A stretch of 50,158 nt of DNA, taken from sequence record OP455115; one strand, 5' to 3'. This DNA is from Escherichia phage LHE71. The notes under the pieces were generated by a model. That model saw only the letters and a list, made by a program, of their open reading frames with translations. It was not told where the DNA came from and did no database searches. This document shows positions 1 to 50,158 of this stretch, piece after piece (position 1 is the first letter of the stretch; each line of letters opens with the position of its first letter). The position numbers were made by a program, and so were the translations under genes.

Positions 1-18
1 AAATCCATCCTCTCTGTT

Positions 19-33
19 TAACATTTAGTGCTA
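19..33. promoter_or_regulatory. Palindromic intergenic motif instance (TAACATTTAGTGCTA)
   Basis: Matches recurring 15-bp inverted repeat TAGCA(A/C)-N3-(G/T)TGCTA seen about 20 times in intergenic DNA. Confidence 0.35.
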
Positions 34-53
34 TTTTACCATATTGCAGACAT

Positions 54-75
54 AAAAAAACCCGCCGAAGCGGGT
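54..75 (-). terminator. Rho-independent terminator
   Basis: Stem CCCGC/GCGGG with 4-nt loop, followed by a 7-T run on the minus strand, immediately 3' of the 85..312 gene. Confidence 0.55.
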
Positions 76-84
76 TAGTGTTTA

Positions 85-312
85 TCACGACAATCGTCGC
101 TTAATTCCTTTAGGGTGGGTCTGAGCTTTAGAGTAGCAGTGAGCAAGGTCGCCAGTCATTTCCCATTGGTCCTTCTTGGCTGAGTAGGTAAGCCATACGC
201 CAGTTTTATCCTTAGCGTCCATCGCAATTGCTGCCGCAACAAGTGCGAAGCCAGCAAACAAACCAGCACCAAAAATAACGATACCAGCAAGAATCAATAA
301 AAAAATGGTCAT
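85..312 (-). CDS. Small membrane protein, unknown function
   Basis: 75-aa ORF, SD AAGGAG upstream, N-terminal hydrophobic segment. Confidence 0.55.
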   Translation of the reverse strand: MTIFLLILAGIVIFGAGLFAGFALVAAAIAMDAKDKTGVWLTYSAKKDQWEMTGDLAHCYSKAQTHPKGIKRRLS

Positions 313-313
313 G

Positions 314-499
314 TTAAATCTCCTTGATTAATTCAATGTTTATTTTGTGGGTGTCAAGATTAGCTCCAGAAAGTTTCTTTGCTTTCGTGATGGCTTCTGC
401 CTGACTGGTTGCAGATAATTCAGCTTCGAAAGATTGTTTGCACGACTGGCAAAACATACCCATCTTTCGAATGATTAATTTAACTTTGAATCGCTTCAT
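314..499 (-). CDS. Hypothetical protein
   Basis: 61-aa ORF tightly packed in the minus-strand early operon. Confidence 0.45.
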   Translation of the reverse strand: MKRFKVKLIIRKMGMFCQSCKQSFEAELSATSQAEAITKAKKLSGANLDTHKINIELIKEI

Positions 500-641
500 C
501 TTCCTGCGCCTTAATCATAACGCCAGCAATGCGACCAATTACAGCCTCGCCAGGATTTAATCGCTTTTTATAACGAGTGGTTTCACCGTTGCGAGTTACT
601 TTAATTTCAATTTTGATTGATTCGTCTTTAGTGTTTTGCAT
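480..641 (-). CDS. Hypothetical small protein (about 53 aa)
   Basis: ORF absent from the supplied track (below its size cutoff); ATG with AAGGGG-like SD; overlaps the next gene start by about 20 nt. Confidence 0.3.
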   Translation of the reverse strand: MQNTKDESIKIEIKVTRNGETTRYKKRLNPGEAVIGRIAGVMIKAQEDEAIQS

Positions 642-805
642 TATGCAATCCCCTTGAATTGTTGCCGCTTACGGGTCTGCGGCGTTGCTTAACCACTATG
701 CAACCGAGCTTGTTAGCTGGAAGAGTGAGAATCGTCTCACGCGTTGCGCTTCATTGCGCCTCGTCTGTCTACGGGATTAATACTATCACCGCTCAGGGAC
801 GTAGG

Positions 806-1009
806 TCAATCATTAATTTCAAATTGGCCCTTAGTAATATCCTGCGGGTAATCAACCTCATGCAGGTTTCCATCATCGCCGTACGCATATACGAGTCTAT
901 TTGCTTTATTTACTTTTTCAACATCGTACAAGCACCCCGCTGAGAAAGCATCGCTATTGCGTGACGTGATGCATCGAACCTGATCGCCTTTCTTTGGTAA
1001 ATTAGCCAT
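806..1009 (-). CDS. Hypothetical protein, member of small paralogous domain family
   Basis: 67 aa; carries the VRCITS...LYDV...DDGN pattern shared with 4233..4871, 12582..12998 and 16401..16577. Confidence 0.5.
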   Translation of the reverse strand: MANLPKKGDQVRCITSRNSDAFSAGCLYDVEKVNKANRLVYAYGDDGNLHEVDYPQDITKGQFEIND

Positions 1010-1239
1010 TATTCGTAATCCCCTTCTTTGTTACCTACGCGCCCGGCAATATACCCGGCAGTCCAGACAAATTTGTAGCGATCGATGAGTAATTCGACCT
1101 TTTTGTGGTGAGCAGAAATAACGTCAATCATGATCTTGTCGTTTTTCCGATCTTCTTTTTTCATGCCACTGACGAATTTATTTAATTCCTTCGCCGCGCG
1201 CTTTACTACGTTCCATTCCGCTTCACTTAAACCGAACAT
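1009..1239 (-). CDS. Hypothetical protein
   Basis: 76-aa ORF, start overlaps upstream stop. Confidence 0.5.
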   Translation of the reverse strand: MFGLSEAEWNVVKRAAKELNKFVSGMKKEDRKNDKIMIDVISAHHKKVELLIDRYKFVWTAGYIAGRVGNKEGDYE

Positions 1240-1583
1240 TATTTACCTCTCCCAAATGAAAAATTAACACCTAAAACCTGATTGCAAACTGATTCCATGT
1301 ATCGCAACTGGTATTGAGCAACCTTTGAAGGACTTAATTCATCGGCAAATAAATCATCAACATTGATTTCTTTTTTATGCTTGCGCTTCCATGCCTTGAT
1401 AATGTTTGGCAAGATGCGCTCGCTTTTCCATGCTGCAAACTCAGCTTGATTAGTTGATGCAGGCGTAAGTTGCTTTTCAATCTGGTTTAGCAACTCATCG
1501 GTTGCTCCTTTTACGTGCAATTGATCGCTGATAGCATCAAGGATTTCACGAGCTTGCTTCTCTGACAGGTTAATAGTAATCAT
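1239..1583 (-). CDS. Hypothetical protein
   Basis: 114-aa ORF, overlapping start/stop with neighbours. Confidence 0.5.
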   Translation of the reverse strand: MITINLSEKQAREILDAISDQLHVKGATDELLNQIEKQLTPASTNQAEFAAWKSERILPNIIKAWKRKHKKEINVDDLFADELSPSKVAQYQLRYMESVCNQVLGVNFSFGRGK

Positions 1584-1789
1584 GCCTCTTCTCCTTCATC
1601 TTCGATCGGTGTAAAAAACAGAGTGTTCACTGCCGGGTTATAATAAACTCCGTCGTCATAGTCGCTTTCTTTCACTTTAATGAAAACGCCGCAACCGTCA
1701 TGCATGAAATCACCGTTATCAGTATGAACGAGTTCGAATACTTCAGAAGTTTTAGTGCAAGTGAAAAACTTATCAGTTGATACCATCAT
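1580..1789 (-). CDS. Hypothetical protein
   Basis: 69-aa ORF directly downstream of a promoter-like module. Confidence 0.5.
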   Translation of the reverse strand: MMVSTDKFFTCTKTSEVFELVHTDNGDFMHDGCGVFIKVKESDYDDGVYYNPAVNTLFFTPIEDEGEEA

Positions 1790-1849
1790 TTCTATTTTCT
1801 CTCTTCGTTGTCGATGAGGTAACTATATCAAATCACCCCACCGACGTTT

Positions 1850-1864
1850 TAGCAATTAGTGCTA
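1850..1864. promoter_or_regulatory. Palindromic intergenic motif instance (TAGCAATTAGTGCTA)
   Basis: 15-bp inverted repeat; on the minus strand followed after 22 nt by TATAGT and a conserved leader. Confidence 0.45.
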
Positions 1865-2434
1865 TTTATTGATGAACGTAGCGGCTATGTGCTGAGCGGT
1901 AATTTCTGGATGACCTTCTATAGCAAAGAAATCACACTCCTGATAACCATTAACCCCGATCATATCGTCCAGATAAATATAATCACGGCTGTCGTTGTCA
2001 AAGTTGCAGCCTTTGCGATGGATTCGGCATAGCTTGACCTGGATATCACCTTCAATCATCTGCAATACCTCATCCTTGAATCCTCCATCTGTAAATACCG
2101 ACAGAGAATCTGACTCTTTTACCTTGCATTCCGCTCGCATACCGAAAAATCGATTGCCAAATTGCGGCTTGATTACCTCCTCGCTAATCCAGATCATAAA
2201 TTGCCGTGGGCTTTTACCGTTCAGGATAGATGCTGGCTCTTCTTTATATCGACGGTCCTCATACAGGAACATGAAATACTCGAAATTAGCCTCACCCAAT
2301 ATTGCTCGTGCAATCTCAAACATTGGCGCTTTGAAGCTTCGTAGCGCTACGTGATCGTAAGTGTCAGCCAGGATGCATCCGATAGTGTCTTTTCCAGCGC
2401 CTGGTGCACCGTTTAAAATGATAGCTGTTTTCAT
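1862..2434 (-). CDS. P-loop kinase, deoxynucleoside monophosphate kinase-like
   Basis: Walker A GAPGAGKDT near N-terminus and LNGKSP motif; resembles phage dNMP kinases from memory. Confidence 0.55.
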   Translation of the reverse strand: MKTAIILNGAPGAGKDTIGCILADTYDHVALRSFKAPMFEIARAILGEANFEYFMFLYEDRRYKEEPASILNGKSPRQFMIWISEEVIKPQFGNRFFGMRAECKVKESDSLSVFTDGGFKDEVLQMIEGDIQVKLCRIHRKGCNFDNDSRDYIYLDDMIGVNGYQECDFFAIEGHPEITAQHIAATFINK

Positions 2435-2435
2435 G

Positions 2436-2546
2436 TTAGTATCTCCCTAAAAATAATTTTGCCACATTGATGATGGTGTGATTGATGATTAACAGTATAA
2501 TAACCGTTAATACCGGATGCGCTGCAATAAATTCGTACATGTTCAT
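2436..2546 (-). CDS. Small hydrophobic peptide (36 aa)
   Basis: ORF absent from the supplied track (below its size cutoff); ATGA overlap with the HAD gene stop; predicted single TM segment. Confidence 0.35.
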   Translation of the reverse strand: MNMYEFIAAHPVLTVIILLIINHTIINVAKLFLGRY

Positions 2547-3076
2547 TCATCTACTCCGTGAGATTTTAAATGATCGTGGACGTTATCGCCATAGTCAACT
2601 ACAGCATACGTAGTTATTCCAAGCGATCGGAATAATGGAATAATTTGCGGTGAGTCATCCCAAGCTGCCAGAATGTTATCAACGCCGATCGCGCGCACCG
2701 CCTCTTCTTTCATTACCGTGTCTTTGCGGTTGTCGGTATGCGGCCTCATGACTAAGTAATCATATCTTGCGCCGTGATGCTTAAGCCATAACTCAGATGC
2801 GTAACGCACCTCATCGCTTCTCCCGGTTAAAATGATCACATGATAACCAGCTGCAAACATAGAGTTCATCACTTCAATCGTACTCTGGATTGGGTTATCA
2901 AATATTGCCGCGCGGTTAAACTCAGACCAGCTTTCAGTCAAGTGCAAATCCTTTGTCGGTAGCAGGTGAAGTCGCTTTGAGCCATCACTCAGCGTTCCGT
3001 CAAAGTCAAAGATTGCTACGCGGCGCGTGCCGAGAAACAGGTTGATAGTCTGACCCCAAATGGTGACTTTATCCAT
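2543..3076 (-). CDS. HAD-superfamily phosphatase
   Basis: HAD motif I FDFDGTL (DxDxT) near N-terminus; 177 aa. Confidence 0.6.
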   Translation of the reverse strand: MDKVTIWGQTINLFLGTRRVAIFDFDGTLSDGSKRLHLLPTKDLHLTESWSEFNRAAIFDNPIQSTIEVMNSMFAAGYHVIILTGRSDEVRYASELWLKHHGARYDYLVMRPHTDNRKDTVMKEEAVRAIGVDNILAAWDDSPQIIPLFRSLGITTYAVVDYGDNVHDHLKSHGVDE

Positions 3077-7883: not shown

Positions 7884-7942
7884 CTTCGTTTCCTCGCTCG
7901 TTGTCGATGGGATAACTATACCAGGTTATCCCGATCCAGTTT

Positions 7943-7957
7943 TAACAAAAAGTGCTA
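7943..7957. promoter_or_regulatory. Palindromic intergenic motif instance (TAACAAAAAGTGCTA)
   Basis: Inverted repeat; 22 nt to TGgTATAGT then leader TTATCCCATCGACAACGAG on the minus strand. Confidence 0.45.
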
Positions 7958-8278
7958 CTCTACGATGAACTCAACATTTACCGGGGTCCACTCTTCCATC
8001 CTGGGGATTGAGAGATTTTCCACCTCGCACATATTCCCCTCAACCTTGACAAGTTTTAATTTTTGGTTATTCACCTTCTGCATTCTCATCACGAGGTATC
8101 TTGCTTTCTCGTTTATGGTGCGTTTATCCACGCCTTTTGTGAAGTACATGGGGCCAACAGTGTCGAGGTTTATTTTGATTGACCGCTTACCAATCAGTGC
8201 ATCAGCTATTACCTGAATGTTTGCGTTCTGCTTTGCGTATGCGTAGCGGCCCTCTTCTGTTGTTACGTGTTCAAACAT
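7955..8278 (-). CDS. Hypothetical protein
   Basis: Start set at ATG 8278, which has SD GGAGGA 6 nt upstream. Confidence 0.5.
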   Translation of the reverse strand: MFEHVTTEEGRYAYAKQNANIQVIADALIGKRSIKINLDTVGPMYFTKGVDKRTINEKARYLVMRMQKVNNQKLKLVKVEGNMCEVENLSIPRMEEWTPVNVEFIVE

Positions 8279-8290
8279 AATCACTCCTCC

Positions 8291-8866
8291 TTACAGTCCA
8301 CATTTTTCTATATGCGCTTTCATCTGGCGAACCAGGTCGCGCACAGTGCTTACAGTCACATCACCTTGCTCAATGTCATCAATATCAGGAGTGAAAGAAT
8401 CAAGGCAGTCAGCCAGGCTAACTTTTTTCCGGCTGCGGCGCTTCTTCACCGGAACCTCTTCGTCACTCACCGAGATAGTAACGACTCGCAACTTCTCATC
8501 GTTCATGGTCACGCTAACCTTGACAGATTTGCCGATCTTGGAGAAGTGGCGCGATACGATCGGGGTGATGAATGAGGATTTAAACTTCTCGTTAATCTCT
8601 TCAGTCTTCCCTAACAGCCAGGACTCAGCATATCCGCTAACGGCATCGTCATCAGCGTCAGGAACTGACTTTCTCACTGCTGCCTCAGCCATCTGAGTAG
8701 CATCGAATGTGAACTCGGTATTCTCGCCATCACCATAAAGCTGGTCGCAAGCCGCCCGGATAACATCAGTCACCTTCGCCTCCTGGCGCTGGTTAACGGT
8801 CACGCCAGCTTTCTCGTAAGCTGCCTGGATTGCTGCCTGAACTGCATCTGATTGGTAAGAACTCAT
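8291..8866 (-). CDS. Hypothetical acidic protein, first gene of leftward early arm
   Basis: Start set at internal Met MSSYQ with SD AAGGAG; the longer ORF N-terminus has no SD. Confidence 0.55.
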   Translation of the reverse strand: MSSYQSDAVQAAIQAAYEKAGVTVNQRQEAKVTDVIRAACDQLYGDGENTEFTFDATQMAEAAVRKSVPDADDDAVSGYAESWLLGKTEEINEKFKSSFITPIVSRHFSKIGKSVKVSVTMNDEKLRVVTISVSDEEVPVKKRRSRKKVSLADCLDSFTPDIDDIEQGDVTVSTVRDLVRQMKAHIEKCGL

Positions 8867-8981
8867 AGCTTTCTCCTTAGTTTCAATATACACAATAATT
8901 AACGCGTAACAGCGTGTCTCTGATTGCAGTGTTACACGTCGACCCGCTTGTGTCAATGCTTACAGGCCGATTTTAAGTGTG

Positions 8982-9008
8982 GTTAATCGTGTTAATCGTG
9001 TTAATCGC
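8982..9008. repeat. Tandem 9-bp repeat (GTTAATCGT x3)
   Basis: Three direct copies in the divergent control region. Confidence 0.6.
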
Positions 9009-9120
9009 TTTTCCCATATAAATATGAGCCGATAAAACTACTGTATATATAAACATGAATATCATAATCAGAGCATCCAACGATTAACATAGTAGACACG
9101 CTATACAACCATGTTACAGA

Positions 9121-9196
9121 TAATATCATCTATATATATAAATAAAAAAAATACTTATATATTATATATATACATATATCTATATGTATATTATAA
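9121..9196. repeat. AT-rich (TA)n tract
   Basis: About 75 bp of near-pure A/T with TATATATA runs in the divergent intergenic region. Confidence 0.6.
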
Positions 9197-9216
9197 GGCG
9201 TAATTTGGCGTAATTT
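9197..9216. repeat. Tandem 10-bp repeat (GGCGTAATTT x2)
   Basis: Two perfect direct copies. Confidence 0.55.
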
Positions 9217-9285
9217 TGTCTACAATTGCGATTCAGGCAAATAGTATACAACTGTTAACACAAAATCAATTGTAATCGTAATCGA

Positions 9286-9300
9286 TAGCACGTTTTGCTA
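9286..9300. promoter_or_regulatory. Palindromic intergenic motif instance (TAGCACGTTTTGCTA)
   Basis: Inverted repeat in the control region; no obvious -10 at the usual 22-nt spacing. Confidence 0.35.
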
Positions 9301-9490
9301 AAAATGGAGGTGACTACCGGGCGAACCGGGTAACACTAATTCCTCCCTCTCACAATCATTGCATTCTAAGCAACAATCACATCAACAGTTGCACACCATG
9401 CAACAATCACATTTCATCATTCGCAATCAATCACAATCAAAATTATTCCAGATATTCCAGTATTGATGGAATAATGAGCAACTATTTGAA

Positions 9491-9505
9491 TAGCATTTTT
9501 TGCAA
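9491..9505. promoter_or_regulatory. Palindromic motif of rightward early promoter module
   Basis: TAGCATTTTTTGCAA, then 22 nt, then TATGAT (9528..9533), conserved leader, SD GAGGAAG, ATG at 9568. Confidence 0.5.
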
Positions 9506-9567
9506 AGCATCAGCCAGGTGAATCGGGTATGATTCATCTCATCAACCAATCAGTAGAGGAAGCAGCA

Positions 9568-9693
9568 ATGAGAGTTAAACAGATTTGTAGTCAGTGTGCT
9601 GGTCGTGGTTTTACTCTAGTCCCGTTATTCACTGGAGTCTGGACAATGCAGCGAATCACGTGTCCGGCCTGCAACGGTCAGGGTAAGCGATAA
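9568..9693 (+). CDS. Small zinc-ribbon protein (41 aa) with two CxxCxGxG motifs
   Basis: ORF absent from the supplied track (below its size cutoff); SD GAGGAAG 6 nt upstream; CSQCAGRG and CPACNGQG match the DnaJ-type zinc-finger repeat. Confidence 0.45.
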   Translation: MRVKQICSQCAGRGFTLVPLFTGVWTMQRITCPACNGQGKR

Positions 9694-9716
9694 GGTCAAT
9701 CAGGAGAATGCAACAA

Positions 9717-10423
9717 ATGAAATTAATCTGGTCACTATTTGACGGTTCAGGTCTTGCTGGTCATGAGCTGGCAAAGCAAGGTCACAAGGTGATGTGCTTC
9801 AACTTTGACGGAGCCGATCACGGTGATTACGCAAAGTACAATGCCAGAGTCGAGCATCCGAACATTGAGTATGTGAACGTCTTCATTGATGAGAAGTTCG
9901 AACGTGATGCTATCGCTGGCGTGTACGGAAAGCCGGATTTTATTATGGCCTTCCCGCCGTGCACTGACCTGGCTGTTAGTGCCGCCGCCGCCTCTTTGCC
10001 AGCAAGCGTGAACGTGATCCGTTATTCCAGGAGAAGGCTGTTGCCACCGCAAGGATTGCTGCGAACATTGGCGAGGCGCTTGGTGTTACTTACATCATTG
10101 AGAATCCGGTGAGCGTCCTGTCGTCTGCGTGGAGAAAACCAAATCACTCCTTCAATCCCTGGGAGTATGGCGGCTATCTTCCCGAGAATGACGTGCATCC
10201 CTGGTTCCCGATGTATATTGCGCCGCGAGATGCTTACCCGAAGAAGACTTGTCTGTGGACCTCTGACGATTTTGTCATGCCAAAAAGGAAACCTGTAAGA
10301 CTGCCTGACGGGTACTCTGCACAGCAAAACAAGCTGGGCGGCAAGTCTGCCAAAACGAAGCTGATACGATCCCTGTCGCCGCGTGGATTTTTCAAAGCGA
10401 TCGCAAATAGCACTTTTTGTTAA
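9717..10423 (+). CDS. DNA (cytosine-5)-methyltransferase-like gene interrupted by a -1 frameshift at a GCC repeat
   Basis: N-terminal frame has motif I-like LFDGSGLAG and motif IV-like FPPCTDLAVS; downstream frame has RDPLF and IIENPV (motif V/VI-like); frames switch within 9980..9992. Confidence 0.4.
10408..10422. promoter_or_regulatory. Palindromic motif of promoter module
   Basis: TAGCACTTTTTGTTA, then 22 nt, then CATAAT (10445..10450) and leader TACCTCATCGAAACGAG. Confidence 0.5.
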
Positions 10424-10482
10424 AACTCGAACGATATGATTTGGCATAATTACCTCATCGAAACGAGATTGAGGAAAACAAA

Positions 10483-10668
10483 ATGGCACGTCGCATCACT
10501 AAAGACCTTAAAGTTCTGAACAAAGAAAACGTAGTTAAAATTCTGGTTATTTGGGGTTACAACGAAGAGTCAGCAAAGCAGAAGGTCGAGGCTGGTTATG
10601 ACCTGGCTATCAAGGCAATGCCTAACGACGACGCTAAAGGTATTGCAAATTACGTATCTTTCTTCTAA
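10483..10668 (+). CDS. Hypothetical protein
   Basis: 61-aa ORF with SD GAGGAAAA. Confidence 0.5.
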   Translation: MARRITKDLKVLNKENVVKILVIWGYNEESAKQKVEAGYDLAIKAMPNDDAKGIANYVSFF

Positions 10669-10683
10669 TTAACAGGCCAGTAA

Positions 10684-10869
10684 ATGAAAACAAAATTAGT
10701 TCATAAATCAGAAATCAAGATCGGCGATACCGTGATTCACAACGGAGAGCTTAAAACTGTTGGCAAGGAGTCAATAACCAACGATGAATTTATGGGTTTG
10801 TTGTTGTTCGGGGACTCCTATCGACTTGGTTACAAAATGGTTGAGCTTGTTGAAGATGTAAAATTCTAA
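10684..10869 (+). CDS. Hypothetical protein
   Basis: 61-aa ORF; KOW-like GDTVIHNGELKTVG pattern. Confidence 0.5.
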   Translation: MKTKLVHKSEIKIGDTVIHNGELKTVGKESITNDEFMGLLLFGDSYRLGYKMVELVEDVKF

Positions 10870-10870
10870 A

Positions 10871-10885
10871 TAGCACTTTTTGCTA
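10871..10885. promoter_or_regulatory. Palindromic motif of promoter module
   Basis: TAGCACTTTTTGCTA, then 22 nt, then CATAGT inside a GGGAG/CTCCC hairpin, then conserved leader. Confidence 0.5.
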
Positions 10886-10944
10886 AACGAAAATGCGGGA
10901 GGGCTGCCATAGTTCTCCCATCAACAGAAAACGAGGCAATCACC

Positions 10945-11316
10945 ATGTTTAAACAATTCGTAGACCTGGACTTCTCAGCCAGCACAGCAATCCAGACTGA
11001 CGAGAAAGAGAACGTAGCGATCGATAACATTGCGCGCAAGATTTACAACAAGCAAGAGAGGGCAGTGAGAGTCGCTCTAAGCGCTTATTACGGTGTAAGT
11101 GATGCAATGGAGTGCGTGAACCGAGTAACCCGCGTGGTGGACCGTTTGGGCGTGTCTCGTTTCGTTGATAACGACACTGGCGAGACAATCATTCAGCTTA
11201 ATAATCCATCTATGCGTACCGAGCTTGGAAATATTGCATTATGGGGCGTGGCTAACTACTCAATCACTGTAAACTCCTGCATTGCGGATCGTGTTAAGGA
11301 GGCATTGTATGAGTGA
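10945..11316 (+). CDS. Hypothetical protein
   Basis: 123-aa ORF with SD. Confidence 0.5.
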   Translation: MFKQFVDLDFSASTAIQTDEKENVAIDNIARKIYNKQERAVRVALSAYYGVSDAMECVNRVTRVVDRLGVSRFVDNDTGETIIQLNNPSMRTELGNIALWGVANYSITVNSCIADRVKEALYE

Positions 11317-11509
11317 TAATATCTACCGCGTGGTTGCGATCTCACGCAAGACGCAGAAGAGCGTGATCGCTTACATGGGTAGTAGCGCCATTGAAGCTAC
11401 GGACGCCTTCGAATCATTGAAGAACAACGAGGGATTTATGAACACGTTCCTCGTTCGACTTGAGCGTCTCGAACCTGTTATCATTGATGAGGCGCGAAAG
11501 CTATCCTGA
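11309..11509 (+). CDS. Hypothetical protein
   Basis: Start at MSDNIYRV with SD AAGGAGG; overlaps upstream stop. Confidence 0.5.
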   Translation: MSDNIYRVVAISRKTQKSVIAYMGSSAIEATDAFESLKNNEGFMNTFLVRLERLEPVIIDEARKLS

Positions 11510-11525
11510 CTGGTTAGGGGGAATA

Positions 11526-11846
11526 ATGAACCATACTTACAAAATCACAACGAAGTCACCGAAGATTAACGGGAGCACGGTTGCAGCACTGAATAACGCG
11601 GCGGCAATTCACGAAAAAAATATCATGGAGCGCGTGAAGGCAGCGGTAGGTAGATTCTACGGGATCAACGCTGATATTGCCGACAGTAAACGACTATTCA
11701 AATACGTGCCAGGTCATCCATATAGCAGGATGATTGATATCAAGCATGAAAAAGAATTGGTTCGAATCGGATCGCTTAGCATTGACGAGTTCGACCATAG
11801 CATCAACCTGGTGACGGCGTATCAAACTTGGGACGGTAAAAAATGA
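11526..11846 (+). CDS. Hypothetical protein
   Basis: Start at MNHTYKIT with SD GGGGGAA. Confidence 0.5.
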   Translation: MNHTYKITTKSPKINGSTVAALNNAAAIHEKNIMERVKAAVGRFYGINADIADSKRLFKYVPGHPYSRMIDIKHEKELVRIGSLSIDEFDHSINLVTAYQTWDGKK

Positions 11847-11986
11847 TTTATATTCACACTTTCTATACTGGCAAATTTAACAGCGTAAAAAATGTTCGCG
11901 TTTACGATAGCCACCAAAAAGCAATGATGCAGAAAGTAGTTCTAGGTGGCACAATAAAAGAGTGCAAAGTAATTTCTGAGTACTAA
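11843..11986 (+). CDS. Small hypothetical protein (47 aa)
   Basis: ORF absent from the supplied track (below its size cutoff); ATGA overlap with upstream stop. Confidence 0.3.
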   Translation: MIYIHTFYTGKFNSVKNVRVYDSHQKAMMQKVVLGGTIKECKVISEY

Positions 11987-12001
11987 TAGCACGAATTGCT
12001 A
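11987..12001. promoter_or_regulatory. Palindromic motif of promoter module
   Basis: TAGCACGAATTGCTA, then 22 nt, then ATATAT-type -10 inside a GGGAGT/ACTCCC hairpin. Confidence 0.45.
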
Positions 12002-12063
12002 AAGACATACGATCGGGAGTGATATATATTACTCCCACACCAAAAGAAATAAAGGAATTAAAA

Positions 12064-12288
12064 ATGAGTATTAAAGTTGAGAATATCATCAAGCACCTGA
12101 ACGCGAGAGGCCGTGTAGTTATCAAAATGGATAAGTCTTCCGGTTTTATTTCAATGACGGTAACTAAGACTCGTAACGGTAATAACGTTATCGGCAGCAC
12201 GCCAGGCTCGCGCTTAGTAAATGCTACAGATGCGGATGTGCGCGCTACGCTTGAGGCTAACTCAATTTACATTAATTCATGGAGTTAA
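12064..12288 (+). CDS. Hypothetical protein
   Basis: Start at MSIKVEN with SD AAAGGAA. Confidence 0.5.
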   Translation: MSIKVENIIKHLNARGRVVIKMDKSSGFISMTVTKTRNGNNVIGSTPGSRLVNATDADVRATLEANSIYINSWS

Positions 12289-12501
12289 TTGATGGAGCGG
12301 GATAATTTCTGGACTCGTTATTTTGCCGCCCTTGATGCCGGGCTTAGTGCGGAATGGTGTATAAAGGTTGCATATAAAGAAATCACGCTTGATGACGCGC
12401 TAGGGAATATGGATATGGACGCAGAAAGCGAATATAATCCAGACTTCGAGTTACCTGGTGATGATATTGATGAGGACGACGACGATTATATTCCCTGGTA
12501 A
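12289..12501 (+). CDS. Hypothetical protein with acidic C-terminus
   Basis: 70 aa; C-terminal DDIDEDDDDYIPW. Confidence 0.5.
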   Translation: MMERDNFWTRYFAALDAGLSAEWCIKVAYKEITLDDALGNMDMDAESEYNPDFELPGDDIDEDDDDYIPW

Positions 12502-12503
12502 AT

Positions 12504-12518
12504 AGCACGATTTGTTAA
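12504..12518. promoter_or_regulatory. Palindromic motif of promoter module
   Basis: TAGCACGATTTGTTA, then 22 nt, then TGaTAAAGT inside an AAGGTCA/TGACCTT hairpin. Confidence 0.45.
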
Positions 12519-12581
12519 TATTGCCGTAAGGTCATTTGATAAAGTGACCTTATTCAAGATAACCAATCAGGAGCGAACGCA

Positions 12582-12998
12582 ATGAAATCCATCAAACTGA
12601 AATGCACTCACGCAGATAAAATTACAGGATTTGAAGTAAACAACCTATACAAAGGTCGTGAGCGCTATGATGGCACTCGCGAAGTAAAATTAAAATGTGG
12701 GAAGTATTTAAAACTTGAAAAGCATGATGAATTACAGATTCACGGATCTGATGAAATCTTATTCGCTAAGTTCACTGAGTTGAAAACAAAGACGCTCAAG
12801 TGCACCGGGCTTGACCATCGCAATCCTATGAAAAAATCATTCAAAGTTGGCAAGCGTTACCAGGTGGAAAGCGGTCGCGCTCTCGGCGGCGTAGCTGGTT
12901 ATATTTTTGATGAGGATGGTTGCCGTTGGACATTGTTTCGCGAGGAGATCGGTTTTAGCATAGCGGACGGTACAACCTTTGAGGCAAAATACTTATAA
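12582..12998 (+). CDS. Protein with two copies of the small paralogous domain
   Basis: 138 aa; repeated LKC...GK.Y..E.G pattern related to 4233..4871. Confidence 0.5.
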   Translation: MKSIKLKCTHADKITGFEVNNLYKGRERYDGTREVKLKCGKYLKLEKHDELQIHGSDEILFAKFTELKTKTLKCTGLDHRNPMKKSFKVGKRYQVESGRALGGVAGYIFDEDGCRWTLFREEIGFSIADGTTFEAKYL

Positions 12999-13003
12999 CC
13001 AAT

Positions 13004-13018
13004 AGCACTTTTTGCAAA
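13004..13018. promoter_or_regulatory. Palindromic motif of promoter module
   Basis: TAGCACTTTTTGCAA, then 22 nt, then TATCAT inside a CGGTGT/ACACCG hairpin. Confidence 0.45.
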
Positions 13019-18639: not shown

Positions 18640-18882
18640 TAAGATCGTGTCGGATTTAAGTTCTTCTACGTCTTTCTGAATGATTGAAGGCCAACGCTCG
18701 ATATATTCATTTTTTATCTCATCGAAAGACATGTCAAGAGAACTAGTGAACTCCCACAGATCGCAACCAATAACATCCTGAGTCAATCCGTTTTGCTCCA
18801 TAATTTCGCAGCACGTAGCGCGATAAAGAAGCCATAACCCTTGATCAGTTAATTTAACAGGAAACATTTTTTCGCTCATCAT
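18631..18882 (-). CDS. Hypothetical protein
   Basis: 83-aa ORF, ATGA coupled to Dam gene. Confidence 0.5.
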   Translation of the reverse strand: MMSEKMFPVKLTDQGLWLLYRATCCEIMEQNGLTQDVIGCDLWEFTSSLDMSFDEIKNEYIERWPSIIQKDVEELKSDTILQH

Positions 18883-19592
18883 ACTTTCCTCACCTTTGCT
18901 CGTTTGTTTTTAACGGAAGGACAAATGCTTGTGATTGGGATGTAGTGAGTCTGTTGCACCTCACCTTCTTTAAGCTCGCGCATAATAAAAATCACCGAAC
19001 CTTTGTTATTACCATCTACAGCCTTTCCAGTTTCACCGGATATGAAAGCCAGACGACCGGATCGTGCGTATTCATTGCCGTCAATATCCTCAGTCAAATC
19101 AGCTTCAATCCAGATGATTTCAGCCGCGTGCTGTCGAGCCTCAGTAAACCACGCCGTCGAGTTATCGGCAGGTAAAAGAATATCGATCTGGTTGTTGTGC
19201 TCCATTTGCTCAATCGCTTTCTTGACGAATATATCAGGTCGACTGTAAGGAGGATTTAACCATACGTGCTTATTTTTACCCCACCAACGTTTTAAGCAGT
19301 TTGTTTCCTGGGAATAAAACTTCTCGCAAACTTTATTTTCTTCGCTTGCCGCAGCGTCGAGATCATATTTTCCGTAGCGCCCCTCAAGGTATGCGATAAC
19401 CTCGCGTGGAGTTGACCATAAATCACGAACAACATCCGGCGTATTTGTTCCCTTGTATCGACGCCCTGAAATCTCTTTGCAGGTTGGAGTTTTCAATGCT
19501 TGATAATAACCTCCTGATGCTATTGCTTCGCGAGTGAATGAGCAACCAGTTTCTGCAAAGTCGATTGTTTCGATATCATCAAAGTCTTTCAT
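18879..19592 (-). CDS. DNA N6-adenine methyltransferase (phage Dam-like)
   Basis: Catalytic NPPY motif in WLNPPYSRPDIF; SD AAGAGGA. Confidence 0.7.
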   Translation of the reverse strand: MKDFDDIETIDFAETGCSFTREAIASGGYYQALKTPTCKEISGRRYKGTNTPDVVRDLWSTPREVIAYLEGRYGKYDLDAAASEENKVCEKFYSQETNCLKRWWGKNKHVWLNPPYSRPDIFVKKAIEQMEHNNQIDILLPADNSTAWFTEARQHAAEIIWIEADLTEDIDGNEYARSGRLAFISGETGKAVDGNNKGSVIFIMRELKEGEVQQTHYIPITSICPSVKNKRAKVRKV

Positions 19593-23181: not shown

Positions 23182-24117
23182 GTGAACGAAGAGTTTATGA
23201 TGTTTCAGAAAGAGGACGTCTTGCCGTACATGAAGGGTTTATGGCGCGAGGCGTTCCAGTCAGTCTGCGGATTGCCGAATGAGGTGTTTAATAAGAAGCA
23301 CCAACCTTGCCCTAACTGCGGAGGTAAAGACCGTTTTCGCTGGACCGACAACCTGAACACTCCAGGAGACGGCGGTGCGATCTGCAACTCATGCGGTAAC
23401 GACTCCGGGATCGGTTGGTTGATGAAATTAACTGGTATGCCGTATAGCGATTGCATAAACATCCTGGGAAGATTTCTCGGAAAAGTTCCGCAGGAATACA
23501 TCGTCAAGGCAAACAAGAAAGCGCGCCGGACTCCGGTGTCTGGTGTCAATGTCATGATGGCAGATCATGAAGCAGTGATGAAAGTCATGGAGCGCACAGT
23601 GAAGCGCGTAAAAACACCTCTAAGCATGTTTGAGTCACTACCTACTGAATCATTCGATGTTGGGGTAAAACGTCGCGAGGATGGCAGAGAGTCGGTATTT
23701 CATGCTATCCCGTGCCAACTTGTCCACGAGGACGGGCTTGATGACGAGTTTTGCAATATTTTGATTATTGATGAAGAGGGAAGAGAATCGTTTTACGCGA
23801 AGAAATATACCAGTTGCTCGGTTGCCGTGACTGGTAAAACTGAAAAAGCGATCTACTTATGCCTTAATTGGGTTGATGCTCAGCATATTGCATTTCACAC
23901 AAAGCAAGAGGTATGGGCCTGTTTCACTCCTGAAAATCTCGAAATGGTTGCGTACAGATACAAAGGGGAGCGTGAGGTAAGAGTGGCGTGCGAACCTTCA
24001 GATAAGGAGACTTTATACATGGCTGATGACCGACAATTAAAAATAATCATCCCGAATCCTGGAGGATACCGTTCAGGAATGCAAGCCAAGCTATTCTCAC
24101 CAAGCGATCTACTCTAA
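23182..24117 (+). CDS. Primase-like protein with N-terminal primase zinc ribbon
   Basis: CPNCGGKDRFRW...ICNSCGN matches the CxxCGGxDRFR primase-helicase zinc-binding pattern; GTG start. Confidence 0.6.
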   Translation: MNEEFMMFQKEDVLPYMKGLWREAFQSVCGLPNEVFNKKHQPCPNCGGKDRFRWTDNLNTPGDGGAICNSCGNDSGIGWLMKLTGMPYSDCINILGRFLGKVPQEYIVKANKKARRTPVSGVNVMMADHEAVMKVMERTVKRVKTPLSMFESLPTESFDVGVKRREDGRESVFHAIPCQLVHEDGLDDEFCNILIIDEEGRESFYAKKYTSCSVAVTGKTEKAIYLCLNWVDAQHIAFHTKQEVWACFTPENLEMVAYRYKGEREVRVACEPSDKETLYMADDRQLKIIIPNPGGYRSGMQAKLFSPSDLL

Positions 24118-27212: not shown

Positions 27213-28277
27213 TTACTTGTTTTGATATCTTACCCATGACGGCGTTTCAAGTTCGATCTCGCTTGCGTCGCCAGCATATCCGGGCCAAACGTCCATCTCA
27301 GAGCAAGCCTTATAAGTGTGGACCACGCTAATATACTGATTGCGACCTATTCTGATTTGCTCCATAGTCATGCGGTAAGCAAGGGCAATGTAAGGTTCCT
27401 TTTTCTCCTGTGCCAGCAATCGAACTACGATCGGAATATCTTCCGGGAAGTTTCCTTCAAATGCTCCAGCCTGGATTGCACGTCGCAGCAGGTCGTGCTG
27501 CAATGCCATTTTCAGGTAATAGCCGTGATTGTATGCCAGGCGCGGGAACTCTAACGGGTTAGCGCTCATCGTGGTTTTGAAGTCAGTGATAATCAGAGCT
27601 TCAGGAAAAATCACGTCTTCAAATACCGGATCGCCATTCTCATCATAACCAGTCAGCACACGACCCGGAACATTCTCTTTGTAGTCAAGATGGTCGATCC
27701 GAACCTTAACTTTGACTCCGGATATCTCACCGAAGATTGAGATCTCACGCTGCGCCGTTTCGCTGTTGATGCACGCCTCATGATCAGGATTTTGCTCAAG
27801 TATAGCCCTCATCTTCATGCATGCGTCGTATTTGTCAGCATCAACAAGTTGCTTTCCTTCAGCGCGCGCCTCAGCTTCTGCGATCAGTTCAATCAGGTAT
27901 TGAACGTTTAGTTCCTCACCACAATCAACCATCATTTTGATGAGGTCCGGGTACTGCTTACCGGATGTACCTTTCAGGCCGAATGATTTTAATTTTGCTG
28001 CCAGCGCCGCCTGCGAAGTAATCAGATCCTTAAACTCTGCCGGAGCCGGGCAACGGGCATACGATGCAGTAAACAGATCTCGGCTCTCAAAGTTGGTATG
28101 CGACTGAGTACCGAACTCCAGCGCTTTCGTTGTCTCATTCTTCTTGAATCTCCAGTTAGCCGGGCAAGTTTGATAGATTTCTGCAAGGCTCGATCCGCTA
28201 ACATACTCTGCCGACCAACCTTCGTTACTATGATACTCGTCATTAGAAAGCTGACTTGATGTGAATACTTGGAACAT
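27213..28277 (-). CDS. Recombination-associated exonuclease (PD-(D/E)XK-like)
   Basis: 354 aa, SD AAGGAG; IITDFKTT segment; sits in operon with Erf and SSB. Confidence 0.5.
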   Translation of the reverse strand: MFQVFTSSQLSNDEYHSNEGWSAEYVSGSSLAEIYQTCPANWRFKKNETTKALEFGTQSHTNFESRDLFTASYARCPAPAEFKDLITSQAALAAKLKSFGLKGTSGKQYPDLIKMMVDCGEELNVQYLIELIAEAEARAEGKQLVDADKYDACMKMRAILEQNPDHEACINSETAQREISIFGEISGVKVKVRIDHLDYKENVPGRVLTGYDENGDPVFEDVIFPEALIITDFKTTMSANPLEFPRLAYNHGYYLKMALQHDLLRRAIQAGAFEGNFPEDIPIVVRLLAQEKKEPYIALAYRMTMEQIRIGRNQYISVVHTYKACSEMDVWPGYAGDASEIELETPSWVRYQNK

Positions 28278-28586
28278 TGCGTTTATCTCCTTCGTTTACG
28301 ATAAATCCATTATAGCCATTAACAGCGTTTAGTCAATCGAATACATGTAATTGGTGTGTAATTGCGTGTCTATATTGCTCAAGTTACAACCAGCATCAGC
28401 AGAATCAATGTCTTAAGTCGATTTTTATGCACTGTATATTGCGTAACACTTGTAACCGCTTTTTCTTAGAAATACAGAGATACCTACAAATAGAATCCAC
28501 ATTGATTAAATTTTGAACATACATGATAGAAATTTTACGAATCAATCAAATCACCTGTTACACGATAGACAACTGTTACACAACAA

Positions 28587-28650
28587 TAATTATATATATA
28601 AAGCTAAAATTAAATATTATCTATCTATATATATTATATAGAGTTTTTAC
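28587..28650. repeat. AT-rich (TA)n tract in second divergent control region
   Basis: Near-pure A/T with TATATATA runs, flanked by GTTACAC-type short repeats. Confidence 0.55.
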
Positions 28651-28803
28651 CATATCTACCTGCGGTCGAATGAGGTCGATTTTGTAACACCTCTTCCAGT
28701 TACAAAAATATACACCTGTTACGCGAAAAAATTGTAATCGCACTATTGCAATAAAAGTAAATGCGACATACAATGCAATCACACTAACGACGAGGACATA
28801 CAA

Positions 28804-49633: not shown

Positions 49634-50158
49634 TTAAAGCATATCAAGAATGCTGTTCACTGCCTCTTTCATTGCATCCTCAGTGGTGGCAACAGAGGTC
49701 GATGCGGAAGCTGCCGAGTTTTCGATATTGATTGAGGCTGGTTTATCGATCCCGAGATCCTTACCGATAAATGAGGCGTTAATAACACCGTTGGCGGCAA
49801 GCTGAAATTTTTGCTCGTTGATTACAGATTCCACGAACTCCATAACCTCGCTATATTCCTCTTCTCGCTTCCACTTAATGATCGCGGCCTCACTTGCACC
49901 GATGAATAGTCTGTATCCGGTCCACGTAAACACTCGCGGCTTATGAACAAGCGATTCATACACGCCACCCTGGAAGCTGGCTGATTCTGACGCCTTTATC
50001 GCGTTGTCCTCAGCCCATTCGAAATACTTCACCGACAGATCGAATAGTTGTTCTGGCGTCATCGCACGGTTTTTCGCGAGTACAGTGCCGAATTTTTTCT
50101 TGTATAGCTCTTTGAAATTACCACCCTGGACTACGGGAGCGTTCTTAGGTTCACTCAT
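49634..50158 (-). CDS. terS: Terminase small subunit candidate
   Basis: 174-aa ORF immediately upstream of terL; ATG falls on the last three bases of the window. Confidence 0.5.
   Translation of the reverse strand: MSEPKNAPVVQGGNFKELYKKKFGTVLAKNRAMTPEQLFDLSVKYFEWAEDNAIKASESASFQGGVYESLVHKPRVFTWTGYRLFIGASEAAIIKWKREEEYSEVMEFVESVINEQKFQLAANGVINASFIGKDLGIDKPASINIENSAASASTSVATTEDAMKEAVNSILDML

What the first reader, a model, noticed from the sequence alone, without database searches (positions are those of the whole stretch)
8957..9567. Divergent control region with iteron-like repeats and AT tract
About 600 bp of non-coding DNA separates the leftward and rightward early arms. It contains three tandem GTTAATCGT units, two tandem GGCGTAATTT units, two CAACAATCACAT copies, GTTACA-type short repeats, a 75-bp (TA)n tract and two copies of the palindromic motif. 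The arrangement fits a combined early promoter and replication-origin region.
Basis: seen in the sequence. Interest (0 to 1): 0.5.

Follow-up and report, generated by a model that had tools for sequence, protein, structure and literature searches.

The report
T1-type phage divergent control/pac region
This 700-bp gene-free stretch is the central switch region of a T1-like coliphage genome: both early gene arms start here, related phages place their packaged DNA end here, and lineage-specific repeats flank the most easily melted DNA of the genome; it is real and conserved, but nothing here shows it is the replication origin.

Summary
The window is a complete T1-like (Tunavirus) genome, and the region (really 8867-9567) is homologous to the intergenic region in which the T1 and TLS reference records open at their assigned pac ends. 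Comparison across five Drexlerviridae lineages splits it in two.

The left half (8867-9282) is variable. It holds a leftward promoter and short repeats around the least stable duplex of the genome. The repeat positions are conserved, but the repeat sequence changes from lineage to lineage together with the adjacent gene (8294-8866, unknown function). This points to a lineage-specific DNA-binding array.

The right half (9283-9567) is nearly invariant. It holds two copies of a box found 27 times in the genome, a CAATCA repeat array containing T1 position 1, a TATTCC/GGAATA inverted array, and a canonical promoter cassette for the first rightward gene.

The reading "divergent early control region" is supported. 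The reading "replication origin" is possible but untested, and several results count against it: no DnaA or IHF sites, 9-bp units rather than phased iterons, and a second similar TA-rich module at 28.3-28.8 kb.

The parts
8294..8866 (-). First gene of the leftward arm (191 aa; T1 ORF77 homologue; phrog_11083, unknown function). Candidate binder of the lineage-specific repeats.
   Evidence: PHROG hit 1e-110. Homologous but diverged versions sit at the same position in all lineages. AF2 model pLDDT 72.5. Only weak fold matches, to winged-helix Rep, R3H and Alba proteins.
8867..8956 (-). Leader and candidate leftward promoter PL: -35 TTGACA at 8956..8951, 17-nt spacer, weak -10 AACACT preceded by TGT, RBS AAGGAG, ATG at 8866.
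   Evidence: Read from the sequence. GTCAA is conserved at the equivalent place in lineages A-D and TLS. Not found by the consensus scanner.
8982..9007 (+). Tandem GTTAATCGT x2.9 (lineage-A-specific repeat), lying about 26-51 bp beyond (upstream of) the -35 of PL.
   Evidence: Identical in T1, ISF002, ADB-2 and Lg3. Replaced at the same position by TGTCTAG x2 (B), TGCAACCG x2 (C), GGTAAGAT (D) and GTTCACG x2 (TLS).
9039..9058 (.). Conserved island TACTGTATATATAAACATGA shared by lineages A and B amid divergent flanks. It matches the LexA-box consensus at 17 of 20 positions but lacks the ACAG half-site.
   Evidence: The canonical CTGT-N8-ACAG pattern does not match here.
9080..9088 (-). Single inverted copy (ACGATTAAC) of the lineage-specific repeat, at the left edge of the TA tract.
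   Evidence: I12, I18. An inverted copy lies at the equivalent coordinate (about 202-227) in lineages A-D.
9115..9195 (.). TA-rich tract (90% A+T). It is the least stable 80-bp duplex of the whole genome and holds two weak sigma-70-like matches (+ 9102-9129, - 9190-9161).
   Evidence: Nearest-neighbour dG -72.0 against a mean of -109.1, sd 5.9. 85% identical between lineages A and B although both flanks diverge. Promoter matches.
9197..9216 (+). Tandem GGCGTAATTT x2, right edge of the TA tract. It lies in the variable segment 9197-9282 (A vs B 54% identical).
   Evidence: The second copy is not exact in ISF002, ADB-2 or Lg3.
9272..9284 (+). GTAATCGTAATCG: two further TAATCG copies on the far side of the TA tract.
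   Evidence: Lineages B, D and TLS also carry a copy of their own motif beyond the TA tract.
9285..9301 (+). 'Orphan' copy of the genome-wide box ATAGCACGTTTTGCTAA. It has no -10 at +21 and no gene behind it, yet is invariant in all 12 Tunavirus sequences compared.
9317..9330 (+). Small hairpin CCGGGCGAACCGGG followed by GTAACACT. Two deposited genomes (IME167, Henu5_2) open at 9316|9317.
   Evidence: z about -2. Record openings. Likely not physical termini, because metagenome contigs also break here.
9348..9441 (+). CAATCA repeat array (6 copies in 82 bp), including GCAACAATCACAT x2. T1 record position 1 maps to 9404|9405. Candidate packaging-initiation (pac) region.
   Evidence: T1 annotates 1..2800 as the terminal repeat. 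The TLS pac-assigned position 1 lies in the analogous AATCA array. The array is also present in Webervirus.
9444..9495 (.). TATTCCAG x2 (9444, 9453) facing TGGAATAAT (9467) and (G)GAATAGCA (9487). An operator-like inverted array abutting the second box.
   Evidence: Conserved in Tunavirus and Webervirus. In TLS a tandem palindrome AGACCAATCGGTCT x2 occupies the same place.
9490..9567 (+). Canonical promoter-like cassette for the rightward arm: box 9490-9506, -10 TATGAT 9528-9533 (exactly +21), leader CATCAACCAATCAG, RBS GAGGAAG 9556-9562.
   Evidence: Box start to ATG is 78 nt; TLS repeats lie about 76 nt upstream of start codons (PMC11447400).
9568..9693 (+). First gene of the rightward arm: 41-aa CxxC...CxxC zinc-ribbon protein.
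   Evidence: DnaJ_CXXCXGXG 2.9e-6, below the curated cut-off.
8904..9335 (.). Scattered TGTTACAC-type words (8904-8911, 8929-8937, 9112-9119, 9328-9335). One pair brackets the -10 of PL and one lies in the spacer of the + strand promoter-like site.
   Evidence: The same word clusters in the second divergent region at 28441-28724.

Best explanation
This is the T1-family divergent early-control region, and it also carries the packaging start. It has two functionally different halves.

Right half (9283-9567), near-invariant. By homology with T1 and TLS, terminase recognises and first cuts concatemeric DNA within the CAATCA/CAACAATCACAT array (about 9348-9441). Immediately downstream, a TATTCC/GGAATA operator-like array and a box-plus-extended -10 cassette (9490-9533) start transcription of the rightward early arm at about 9540.

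Left half (8867-9282), lineage-specific. PL (TTGACA 8956-8951) starts the leftward arm. A set of short lineage-specific sites brackets the TA-rich, easily melted tract: three tandem GTTAATCGT, one inverted copy, and two more TAATCG beyond the tract. These sites are bound by a lineage-specific DNA-binding protein, most likely the product of the adjacent gene 8294-8866. That protein thereby controls the promoters in and around the tract (autoregulation or early shut-off).

Shown here: homology, conservation pattern, repeat statistics, cassette geometry. Inferred: every binding, cutting and transcription step.
For: Identity: the window is a Tunavirus genome. The T1 record junction 48836|1 is continuous in the window, and position 1 falls at 9404|9405 inside the second CAACAATCACAT. 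T1 annotates 1..2800 as the terminal repeat.

Literature: PMC7718038 states that pac lies in this UTR in T1 and T1-like phages. TLS pac was mapped by restriction analysis and then assigned by resemblance to P22 pac (PMC11447400). The TLS record opens in the homologous region, 588 bp from the homologous gene (538 bp in T1), inside an AATCA array.

Conservation: 9283-9507 is 82-91% identical across lineages, against 45-59% for 8867-9100 and 9197-9282. No ORF is conserved there.

Promoter cassette: the box occurs 27 times against 2.9 expected and is co-oriented with genes. In 18 of 22 copies a -10-like hexamer starts exactly 21 nt after the box, with the ATG 51-67 nt after it; the 9490 copy fits.

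Binding array: five lineages have different 7-9-mers at the same coordinates (tandem copies, an inverted copy, the TA tract, and mostly a further copy beyond it). Each goes with a diverged homologue of the adjacent gene (A-B 54%, A-C 26%, A-D 17% identity). The A/B divergence is confined to the N-terminal ~100 aa.

Duplicated module: a similar TA-tract and TGTTACAC module sits in the only other divergent intergenic region examined, 28278-28803. That fits a promoter/operator role.
Against: No experimental datum exists for this phage. I could not read the primary papers on how T1 position 1 was fixed. The final TLS assignment used resemblance to P22 pac rather than end sequencing. Other deposited genomes open 54-88 bp away (9316-9350), and some of those breaks look like assembly artefacts. 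The consensus promoter scan found fewer sites than shuffles (2 vs 4.2), and the -10 of PL is poor. Repeat/gene covariation is confounded by physical linkage (100-500 bp). The predicted winged-helix-like recognition region of the protein is in its conserved part, not its lineage-specific part. The CAACAATCACAT duplication is exact in only 7 of 12 Tunavirus sequences. The packaging direction could not be determined.
Confidence: 0.6

Rival explanations
1. The left half is the replication origin. The lineage-specific repeats are iterons for an initiator (the 8294-8866 protein). Binding on both sides of the TA tract melts it, and the phage helicase (13075-14640) and primase (23182-24114) are loaded there. 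The promoters are incidental or prime replication.
Confidence: 0.25
2. The conserved right block is not a packaging site but the template of a non-coding leader or small RNA. It would be transcribed from the orphan box at 9285 and regulate the rightward arm.
For: The orphan box is invariant. The 200 nt behind it contain no conserved ORF. They fold somewhat better than shuffles (z -2.28).
Against: The 9285 box lacks the -10 hexamer found at +21 in 18 of 22 boxes. There is no Rfam match (best E 0.97). No compensatory changes beyond one position in T1. No terminator was found.
Confidence: 0.1
3. The repeats are by-products of replication slippage and AT-rich drift in a gene-free spacer, with no function of their own.
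For: Short tandem duplications arise easily. GGCGTAATTT x2 and CAACAATCACAT x2 are exact in only some relatives.
Against: The positional architecture is conserved across three subfamily-level groups although the sequence is replaced. The right block is near-invariant while neighbouring genes are swapped. The repeats exceed shuffles.
Confidence: 0.03

Closest known systems
Genome-end (pac) intergenic region of coliphage T1 (NC_005833: 1-538 joined to 48675-48836)
   Same: Direct homologue. It aligns in one piece at about 85% identity over window 7897-9546, with the same GTTAATCGT x3, TA tract, boxes, CAACAATCACAT x2 and TATTCC array.
   Different: T1 has three GATC sites here and the window has none. 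The genes to the right differ: the window and most relatives carry a small zinc-ribbon gene and a Dcm-like methyltransferase before the T1 ORF1 homologue.
21-nt intergenic direct repeats of phage TLS, aaATAGCACnnnTTGnTAAAA (PMC11447400)
   Same: It has the same consensus, is co-oriented with transcription, and lies about 76-78 nt before start codons.
   Different: The TLS paper leaves the function open (stoperator, enhancer or UP element). Here a -10-like hexamer lies exactly 21 nt downstream in 18 of 22 copies, which puts the palindrome centre near -42 (inference). The 9285 copy is an orphan without that hexamer.
Lambda ori with O protein, and iteron plasmids (RepE/ori2, pi/R6K)
   Same: Repeated binding sites lie next to an A+T-rich tract and beside a gene whose N-terminal half is type-specific and whose C-terminal half is conserved. 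Sites close to the gene's own promoter would allow autoregulation.
   Different: Units are 8-9 bp, not 17-22 bp. The sites lie outside the gene, whereas lambda's lie inside O. No sequence similarity to O or Rep, and only marginal fold similarity. There are no DnaA or IHF sites. Origin activity is untested.
Defined pac sites of headful phages (P1 pac with TGATCA/G hexamer clusters, SPP1 pacL/pacC/pacR, P22 22-bp pac)
   Same: A cluster of short repeats (CAATCA x6) surrounds the assigned cut position. Cutting may be spread over tens of bp.
   Different: In P1, P22 and SPP1, pac lies in or next to the small-terminase gene (established knowledge). Here terS (49634-50158) is about 9.4 kb away on the circular map. 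There is no sequence similarity. The GATC sites seen in T1 and TLS are absent here.
Class II activator-dependent promoters (e.g. CRP site centred at -41.5)
   Same: The geometry of the box cassette: a 15-bp palindrome centred about 42 bp upstream of the inferred start, no usable -35 (TTGNTA is 22 nt from the -10), and often an extended -10.
   Different: No activator is known. The start sites are inferred, not mapped.

Membership tests
T1-type (Drexlerviridae) terminal/pac intergenic region | Sequence homology and synteny with the region in which the T1 reference genome opens | tested here: met
   Continuous alignment across the T1 48836|1 junction, position 1 = window 9404|9405. Same flanking gene family.
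T1-type (Drexlerviridae) terminal/pac intergenic region | First terminase cut of a headful series occurs here in this phage (sub-molar pac fragment, read-start peak) | not testable with these tools
   Needs virion DNA or raw reads. Only literature on T1, TLS and SU57 is available. Record openings are ambiguous.
T1-type (Drexlerviridae) terminal/pac intergenic region | Headful (pac-type) terminase encoded by the genome | tested here: met
   TerL with Terminase_6C domain at 48026-49594 and adjacent 174-aa ORF at 49634-50158. T1 family membership.
Iteron-type replication origin | Several direct repeats of about 17-22 bp spaced in helical phase | tested here: not met
   Units are 9 bp at 9-bp spacing (8982-9007). 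Other lineages have 8-9 bp units.
Iteron-type replication origin | Adjacent A+T-rich DNA-unwinding element | tested here: met
   9115-9194 is the least stable 80-bp window of the genome.
Iteron-type replication origin | Host-factor sites (DnaA boxes, IHF) in the origin | tested here: not met
   Only two 1-mismatch DnaA boxes in the region, with no enrichment window-wide (43 vs 50). No IHF consensus in the region.
Iteron-type replication origin | Cognate initiator of the Rep/O type encoded nearby | tested here: inconclusive
Iteron-type replication origin | Replication initiates here | not testable with these tools
   Needs marker-frequency or 2D-gel data.
Divergent sigma-70 promoter region | Genes diverge from the region on opposite strands | tested here: met
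   ORFs and homologue annotation. Strand switch of the co-oriented box.
Divergent sigma-70 promoter region | Consensus -35/-10 pairs above chance | tested here: inconclusive
   The scanner finds 2 sites against 4.2 in shuffles. By eye, PL has a perfect TTGACA but a weak -10. The rightward cassette has TATGAT but no -35.
Drexlerviridae ATAGCAC box cassette (TLS 21-nt repeat) | Match to aaATAGCACnnnTTGnTAAAA, co-oriented with transcription, about 76 nt before a start codon | tested here: met
   The 9490 copy has 1 mismatch, + strand, 78 nt to the ATG at 9568, and TATGAT at +21. The 9285 copy matches the consensus but has no gene or -10 behind it.
LexA (SOS) box | CTGT-N8-ACAG | tested here: not met
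   9039-9058 matches 17 of 20 consensus positions but reads CTGT-N8-ACAT.
Known RNA families (Rfam 15) | Covariance-model match at or near the gathering score | tested here: not met
   Best match has E 0.97, 18 bits against a threshold of 44.

The most novel reading that the evidence does not exclude
The left half, together with gene 8294-8866, is the so far unidentified replication-initiation module of T1-like phages. In this reading the protein is a family-wide initiator (phrog_11083) of a new fold family. Its lineage-specific N-terminal half reads lineage-specific 8-9-bp sites placed on both sides of the genome's most meltable tract, a functional analogue of lambda O/ori with specificity swapping between lineages.
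Probability: 0.25. Interest if true: 0.6.

Novelty: new member of a known kind. Interest (0 to 1): 0.4.

Why it matters
T1 is a classical phage, yet its origin, early promoters and pac sequence have never been defined at nucleotide level. This analysis splits the region into separately testable parts. One is a near-invariant ~220-bp block that should suffice for pac recognition, which is useful for transduction and for engineering T1-like phages. Another is a promoter cassette whose fixed box-to-(-10) spacing explains the unexplained 21-nt repeats of TLS-like genomes. The third is a protein/site pair that changes specificity between lineages, which could underlie lineage-specific regulation or replication, and possibly exclusion between co-infecting relatives. 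None of this overturns current views; it sharpens the experiments.

Tried and rejected
1. Lambda test. From memory (Drexler 1984; I could not retrieve the paper), T1 initiates packaging at a lambda site between P and Q. I therefore looked for the conserved block in lambda. Three lambda sites share CACCATGCAA, which lies next to T1 position 1. But about 20% of random 278-bp pieces of the window also hold a 10-mer with 3 or more lambda hits, so this is not above chance.
2. Contig ends as termini. Logan and ENA contigs end at 9313 and 9346. Both ends of such contigs lie at repeated or highly conserved sequence, so they are assembly breaks. This also weakens the 9316|9317 openings of IME167 and Henu5_2.
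3. Rfam scan: nothing.
4. Conserved small ORF in 9283-9567: a long stop-free frame exists, but it has no start codon and is broken in ISF002 and Sso008.
6. DnaA, IHF and LexA site scans: no support.
7. GC skew as an origin marker: it tracks gene orientation.
8. Wider sampling with the search for related loci: alignment A2 was too divergent, and A1 returned only 13 loci, largely the reference phages already seen.
9. The primary T1 and Rtp papers are not in the library, and two literature searches were uninformative.

Full report
**What the window is.** Megablast of 8200-10200 against the phage collection gives 85-90% identity to Tunavirus genomes (ISF002, ADB-2, T1). The large terminase lies at 48026-49594 and a 174-aa ORF ends exactly at the window end (49634-50158). 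The portal, Dam methylase, primase zinc-ribbon protein and helicases are all present. The window is therefore a complete T1-like genome opened at the small-terminase gene, and its own ends say nothing about physical termini.

**Check of the observation.**
- GTTAATCGT x2.9 at 8982-9007
- GGCGTAATTT x2 at 9197-9216
- (G)CAACAATCACAT x2 at 9370-9382 and 9400-9412
- a TA-rich tract at 9131-9195 (94% A+T; 9115-9195 is 90%)
- two copies of a partly palindromic box at 9285-9301 and 9490-9506

In 2000 Markov shuffles of the region, the 9-mer array was never matched. The 10-mer tandem and the 13-nt direct repeat were matched in 27 and 25 shuffles respectively. The true gene-free gap is 8867-9567 (701 bp). 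The leftward gene starts at the ATG at 8866, as in its homologues. The first rightward gene starts at the ATG at 9568, because the ATG at 9529 lies inside the -10 hexamer of its promoter cassette.

**The region is the T1 genome-end region.** I joined the end of the T1 reference record to its start and aligned the junction to the window. It aligns in one piece (window 7897-9546, 84.8% identity), and T1 position 1 falls at 9404|9405, inside the second CAACAATCACAT copy (GCAAC|AATCACAT). RefSeq annotates T1 1..2800 as the terminal repeat. PMC7718038 states that the pac site lies in this untranslated region in T1 and other T1-like phages.

Phage TLS belongs to a different subfamily. Its pac site was located by restriction mapping of the sub-molar pac fragment and then assigned by resemblance to P22 pac (PMC11447400). 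Its record opens in the homologous divergent intergenic region, 588 bp from the start of gp01. Gp01 is a weak structural match (Foldseek E 0.02) to the window's 8294-8866 protein in BFVD. The equivalent distance in T1 is 538 bp. In both phages position 1 sits in an array of AATCA-type repeats. Several other deposited genomes open between 9316 and 9350. However, metagenome contigs also break at 9313 and 9346, so I treat those openings as possible assembly effects.

**Two halves with different evolutionary behaviour.** A 12-genome alignment, scored by segment, shows that 9283-9507 is 82-91% identical between lineages. The segments 8867-9100 and 9197-9282 are only 45-59% identical. The TA tract between them is 85% identical. 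Part of the right block (about 9423-9506) is recognisable even in Klebsiella and Enterobacter Webervirus phages. No ORF is conserved in the block and no Rfam family matches.

**The 'palindromic motif'.** ATAGCAYNNNTTGNTAA occurs 27 times in the window against 2.9 expected. Minus-strand copies lie left of 8000 and plus-strand copies run from 9285 to 13018, always co-oriented with the genes. It is the 21-nt repeat described for TLS, for which the authors left the function open.

Putting the copies in register adds something. In 18 of 22 copies a -10-like hexamer (TATAGT, TATGAT, CATAAT...) starts exactly 21 nt after the box, often preceded by TG, and the start codon follows 51-67 nt after the box. 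TTGNTA is thus 22 nt from the -10, too far to act as a -35. The palindrome centre falls near -42 of the inferred start, which is the geometry of a class II activator site (inference).

The 9490 copy is a textbook instance: TATGAT at 9528-9533, RBS at 9556-9562, ATG at 9568. The 9285 copy is an orphan without a -10 or a gene, yet it is invariant in all Tunavirus sequences. It may be a pure binding site.

**The lineage-specific repeats.** I counted 7-mers in the intergenic region of each lineage, numbering from the leftward gene's start codon.

| Lineage | Motif | Tandem direct copies | Inverted copy | TA tract | Further copies |
|---|---|---|---|---|---|
| A (window, T1) | GTTAATCG | 116, 125, 134 | 214 | 244-333 | TAATCG at 407 and 413 |
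| B (EF3-1, LeonhardEuler) | TGTCTAG | 121, 129 | 213 | 231-326 | 362 |
| C (AV106, phiL) | TGCAACCG | 113, 122 | 226 | 243-336 | none found |
| D (Webervirus P13a, F20) | GGTAAGAT | 94 | 202 | 204-279 | 312 |
| TLS | GTTCACG | 163, 171 | 439 (beyond the tract) | 306-395 | 504, 634 |

The positions are conserved while the sequences are replaced. That is the signature of a protein-binding array whose specificity has been swapped.

The adjacent leftward gene is homologous in lineages A-C by PHROG (phrog_11083), in lineage D by alignment and in TLS only by a weak structural match. It diverges in step with the repeats: A-B 54%, A-C 26%, A-D 17% identity. Between A and B the divergence is confined to the N-terminal ~100 residues, while the centre (FKSxFITPIxxRHFxKxGK ... 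VPVKKRRSRKKVSLADCLDSF) is conserved. Physical linkage could produce the same pattern. However, motif copies persist on the far side of the conserved TA tract, across which recombination could separate them, and that favours functional coupling.

**Origin or operator?** In favour of an origin:
- the TA tract is the least stable 80-bp duplex of the genome (-72.0 kcal/mol against -109.1, sd 5.9)
- it is bracketed by the specific sites
- the layout recalls lambda O/ori and iteron plasmids
- no origin is known for T1-like phages

Against an origin:
- the units are 8-9 bp long
- DnaA boxes are not enriched and no IHF site is present
- the TA module is not unique

On the last point, the only other divergent intergenic region examined (28278-28803) lies between the RecE-like exonuclease gene and a lipoprotein-like gene. 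It has the second least stable tract (28576-28655, -77.9), which aligns with the first. It also has its own tandem repeat (TGTAATTGCGTG x2.8), an exact IHF consensus and a 1-mismatch DnaA box. Yet 11 of the 34 hits, and all three exact copies, fall in these two regions. In the region under study they bracket the -10 of PL and lie in the spacer of the + strand promoter-like site at 9102-9129.

A module that occurs at both divergent promoter regions looks more like a promoter/operator device than a unique origin. Two promoter-linked origins, as in T4 or T7, cannot be excluded. I put the operator reading at roughly twice the probability of the origin reading.

**Verdict.** The origin claim is an open hypothesis with some comparative support and several counts against it. 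The right half is better explained as the pac/terminus block plus the first rightward promoter cassette. The sequence is about 90% identical to published genomes, and the T1 and TLS literature already places pac and the 21-nt repeats here, so this is a new member of a known kind. The additions made here are the two-module anatomy, the fixed box-to-(-10) spacing, the position-conserved but sequence-swapped repeat array co-diverging with the adjacent gene across three subfamily-level groups, and the second paralogous TA module. All are inferences from sequence and need the experiments listed under next steps.

Noticed in passing
window 28278-28803: A second divergent intergenic region, between the RecE-like exonuclease gene (27213-28277, minus) and a lipoprotein-like gene (28804-, plus). 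It has a TA tract alignable to the first one (28587-28640), tandem TGTAATTGCGTG x2.8 (28346-28378), an exact IHF consensus (28403-28415), a 1-mismatch DnaA box (28425-28433) and six TGTTACAC-type words. By eye there is a near-consensus sigma-70 promoter on the minus strand (TTGACT 28336..28331, 16 nt, TATAAT 28314..28309). It is a rival origin candidate or a paralogous promoter module.
   Followed up: partly
window-wide: 27 sites, e.g. 1849, 3866, 5643, 6288, 10407, 10870, 11986, 12502, 19647: The ATAGCAC box cassette. A -10-like hexamer lies exactly 21 nt after the box in 18 of 22 copies. Between or around them is a hairpin whose sequence differs from copy to copy but stays self-complementary. 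A conserved CATCAACAA...GAGGAA leader follows. Many boxes start right at the stop codon of the preceding gene, and one (10407) overlaps the end of the methyltransferase ORF.
   Followed up: partly
window 9708-10423: The Dcm-like C5 cytosine methyltransferase is split into two ORFs (9708-10112 and 10109-10423). The cause is a 2-nt insertion in a GCC run at about 9985, just after the FPPC catalytic motif, relative to the intact 234-aa ISF002 gene. It is either a pseudogene or a sequencing error. ADB-2 carries a 'potential frameshift' note at the same gene.
   Followed up: partly
window 9039-9058: TACTGTATATATAAACATGA matches the LexA-box consensus at 17 of 20 positions but reads ACAT instead of ACAG. 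It is an island shared by lineages A and B between divergent flanks.
   Followed up: partly
window 8294-8866 and relatives (alignment A1): The phrog_11083 protein is mosaic. Two alternative N-terminal halves and two alternative C-terminal tails (…TPDIDDIEQGDVTVSTVRDLV… vs …DVDVSKLSDSELMVRDVNEIV…) occur in several combinations, so recombination within the gene is frequent.
   Followed up: no
L015 (Shigella phage phiL) 640-999: The annotated 119-aa CDS has no PHROG or Pfam hit. It covers what in the sister phage AV106 is the repeat and TA-tract part of the intergenic region, with the same TGCAACCG sites at the same coordinates. It is probably an over-called ORF.
   Followed up: partly
L014 (Shigella phage vB_SsoS_008) 487-1557: This is a hybrid arrangement. 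The intergenic region carries a lineage-B leader followed by a lineage-A leader fragment, and the left gene is only 88 aa. It looks like a recombination scar in this region.
   Followed up: no
window 8867-9567: There is no GATC in 701 bp although the genome averages 4.7 per kb and encodes a Dam methylase (18882-19592). T1 has three GATC sites in its homologous region, two of them 10 bp apart near position 1, and TLS has several.
   Followed up: partly
window 9568-9693: The first rightward gene encodes a 41-aa protein with two CxxC pairs (a zinc ribbon; DnaJ central-domain-like, below the Pfam cut-off). A weak PHROG hit to Q-like antiterminators covers only the zinc-binding stretch.
   Followed up: no
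window 49634-50158: The window ends exactly at the start codon of the probable small-terminase ORF. The record is therefore a full genome rotated to terS, in reverse orientation.
   Followed up: partly
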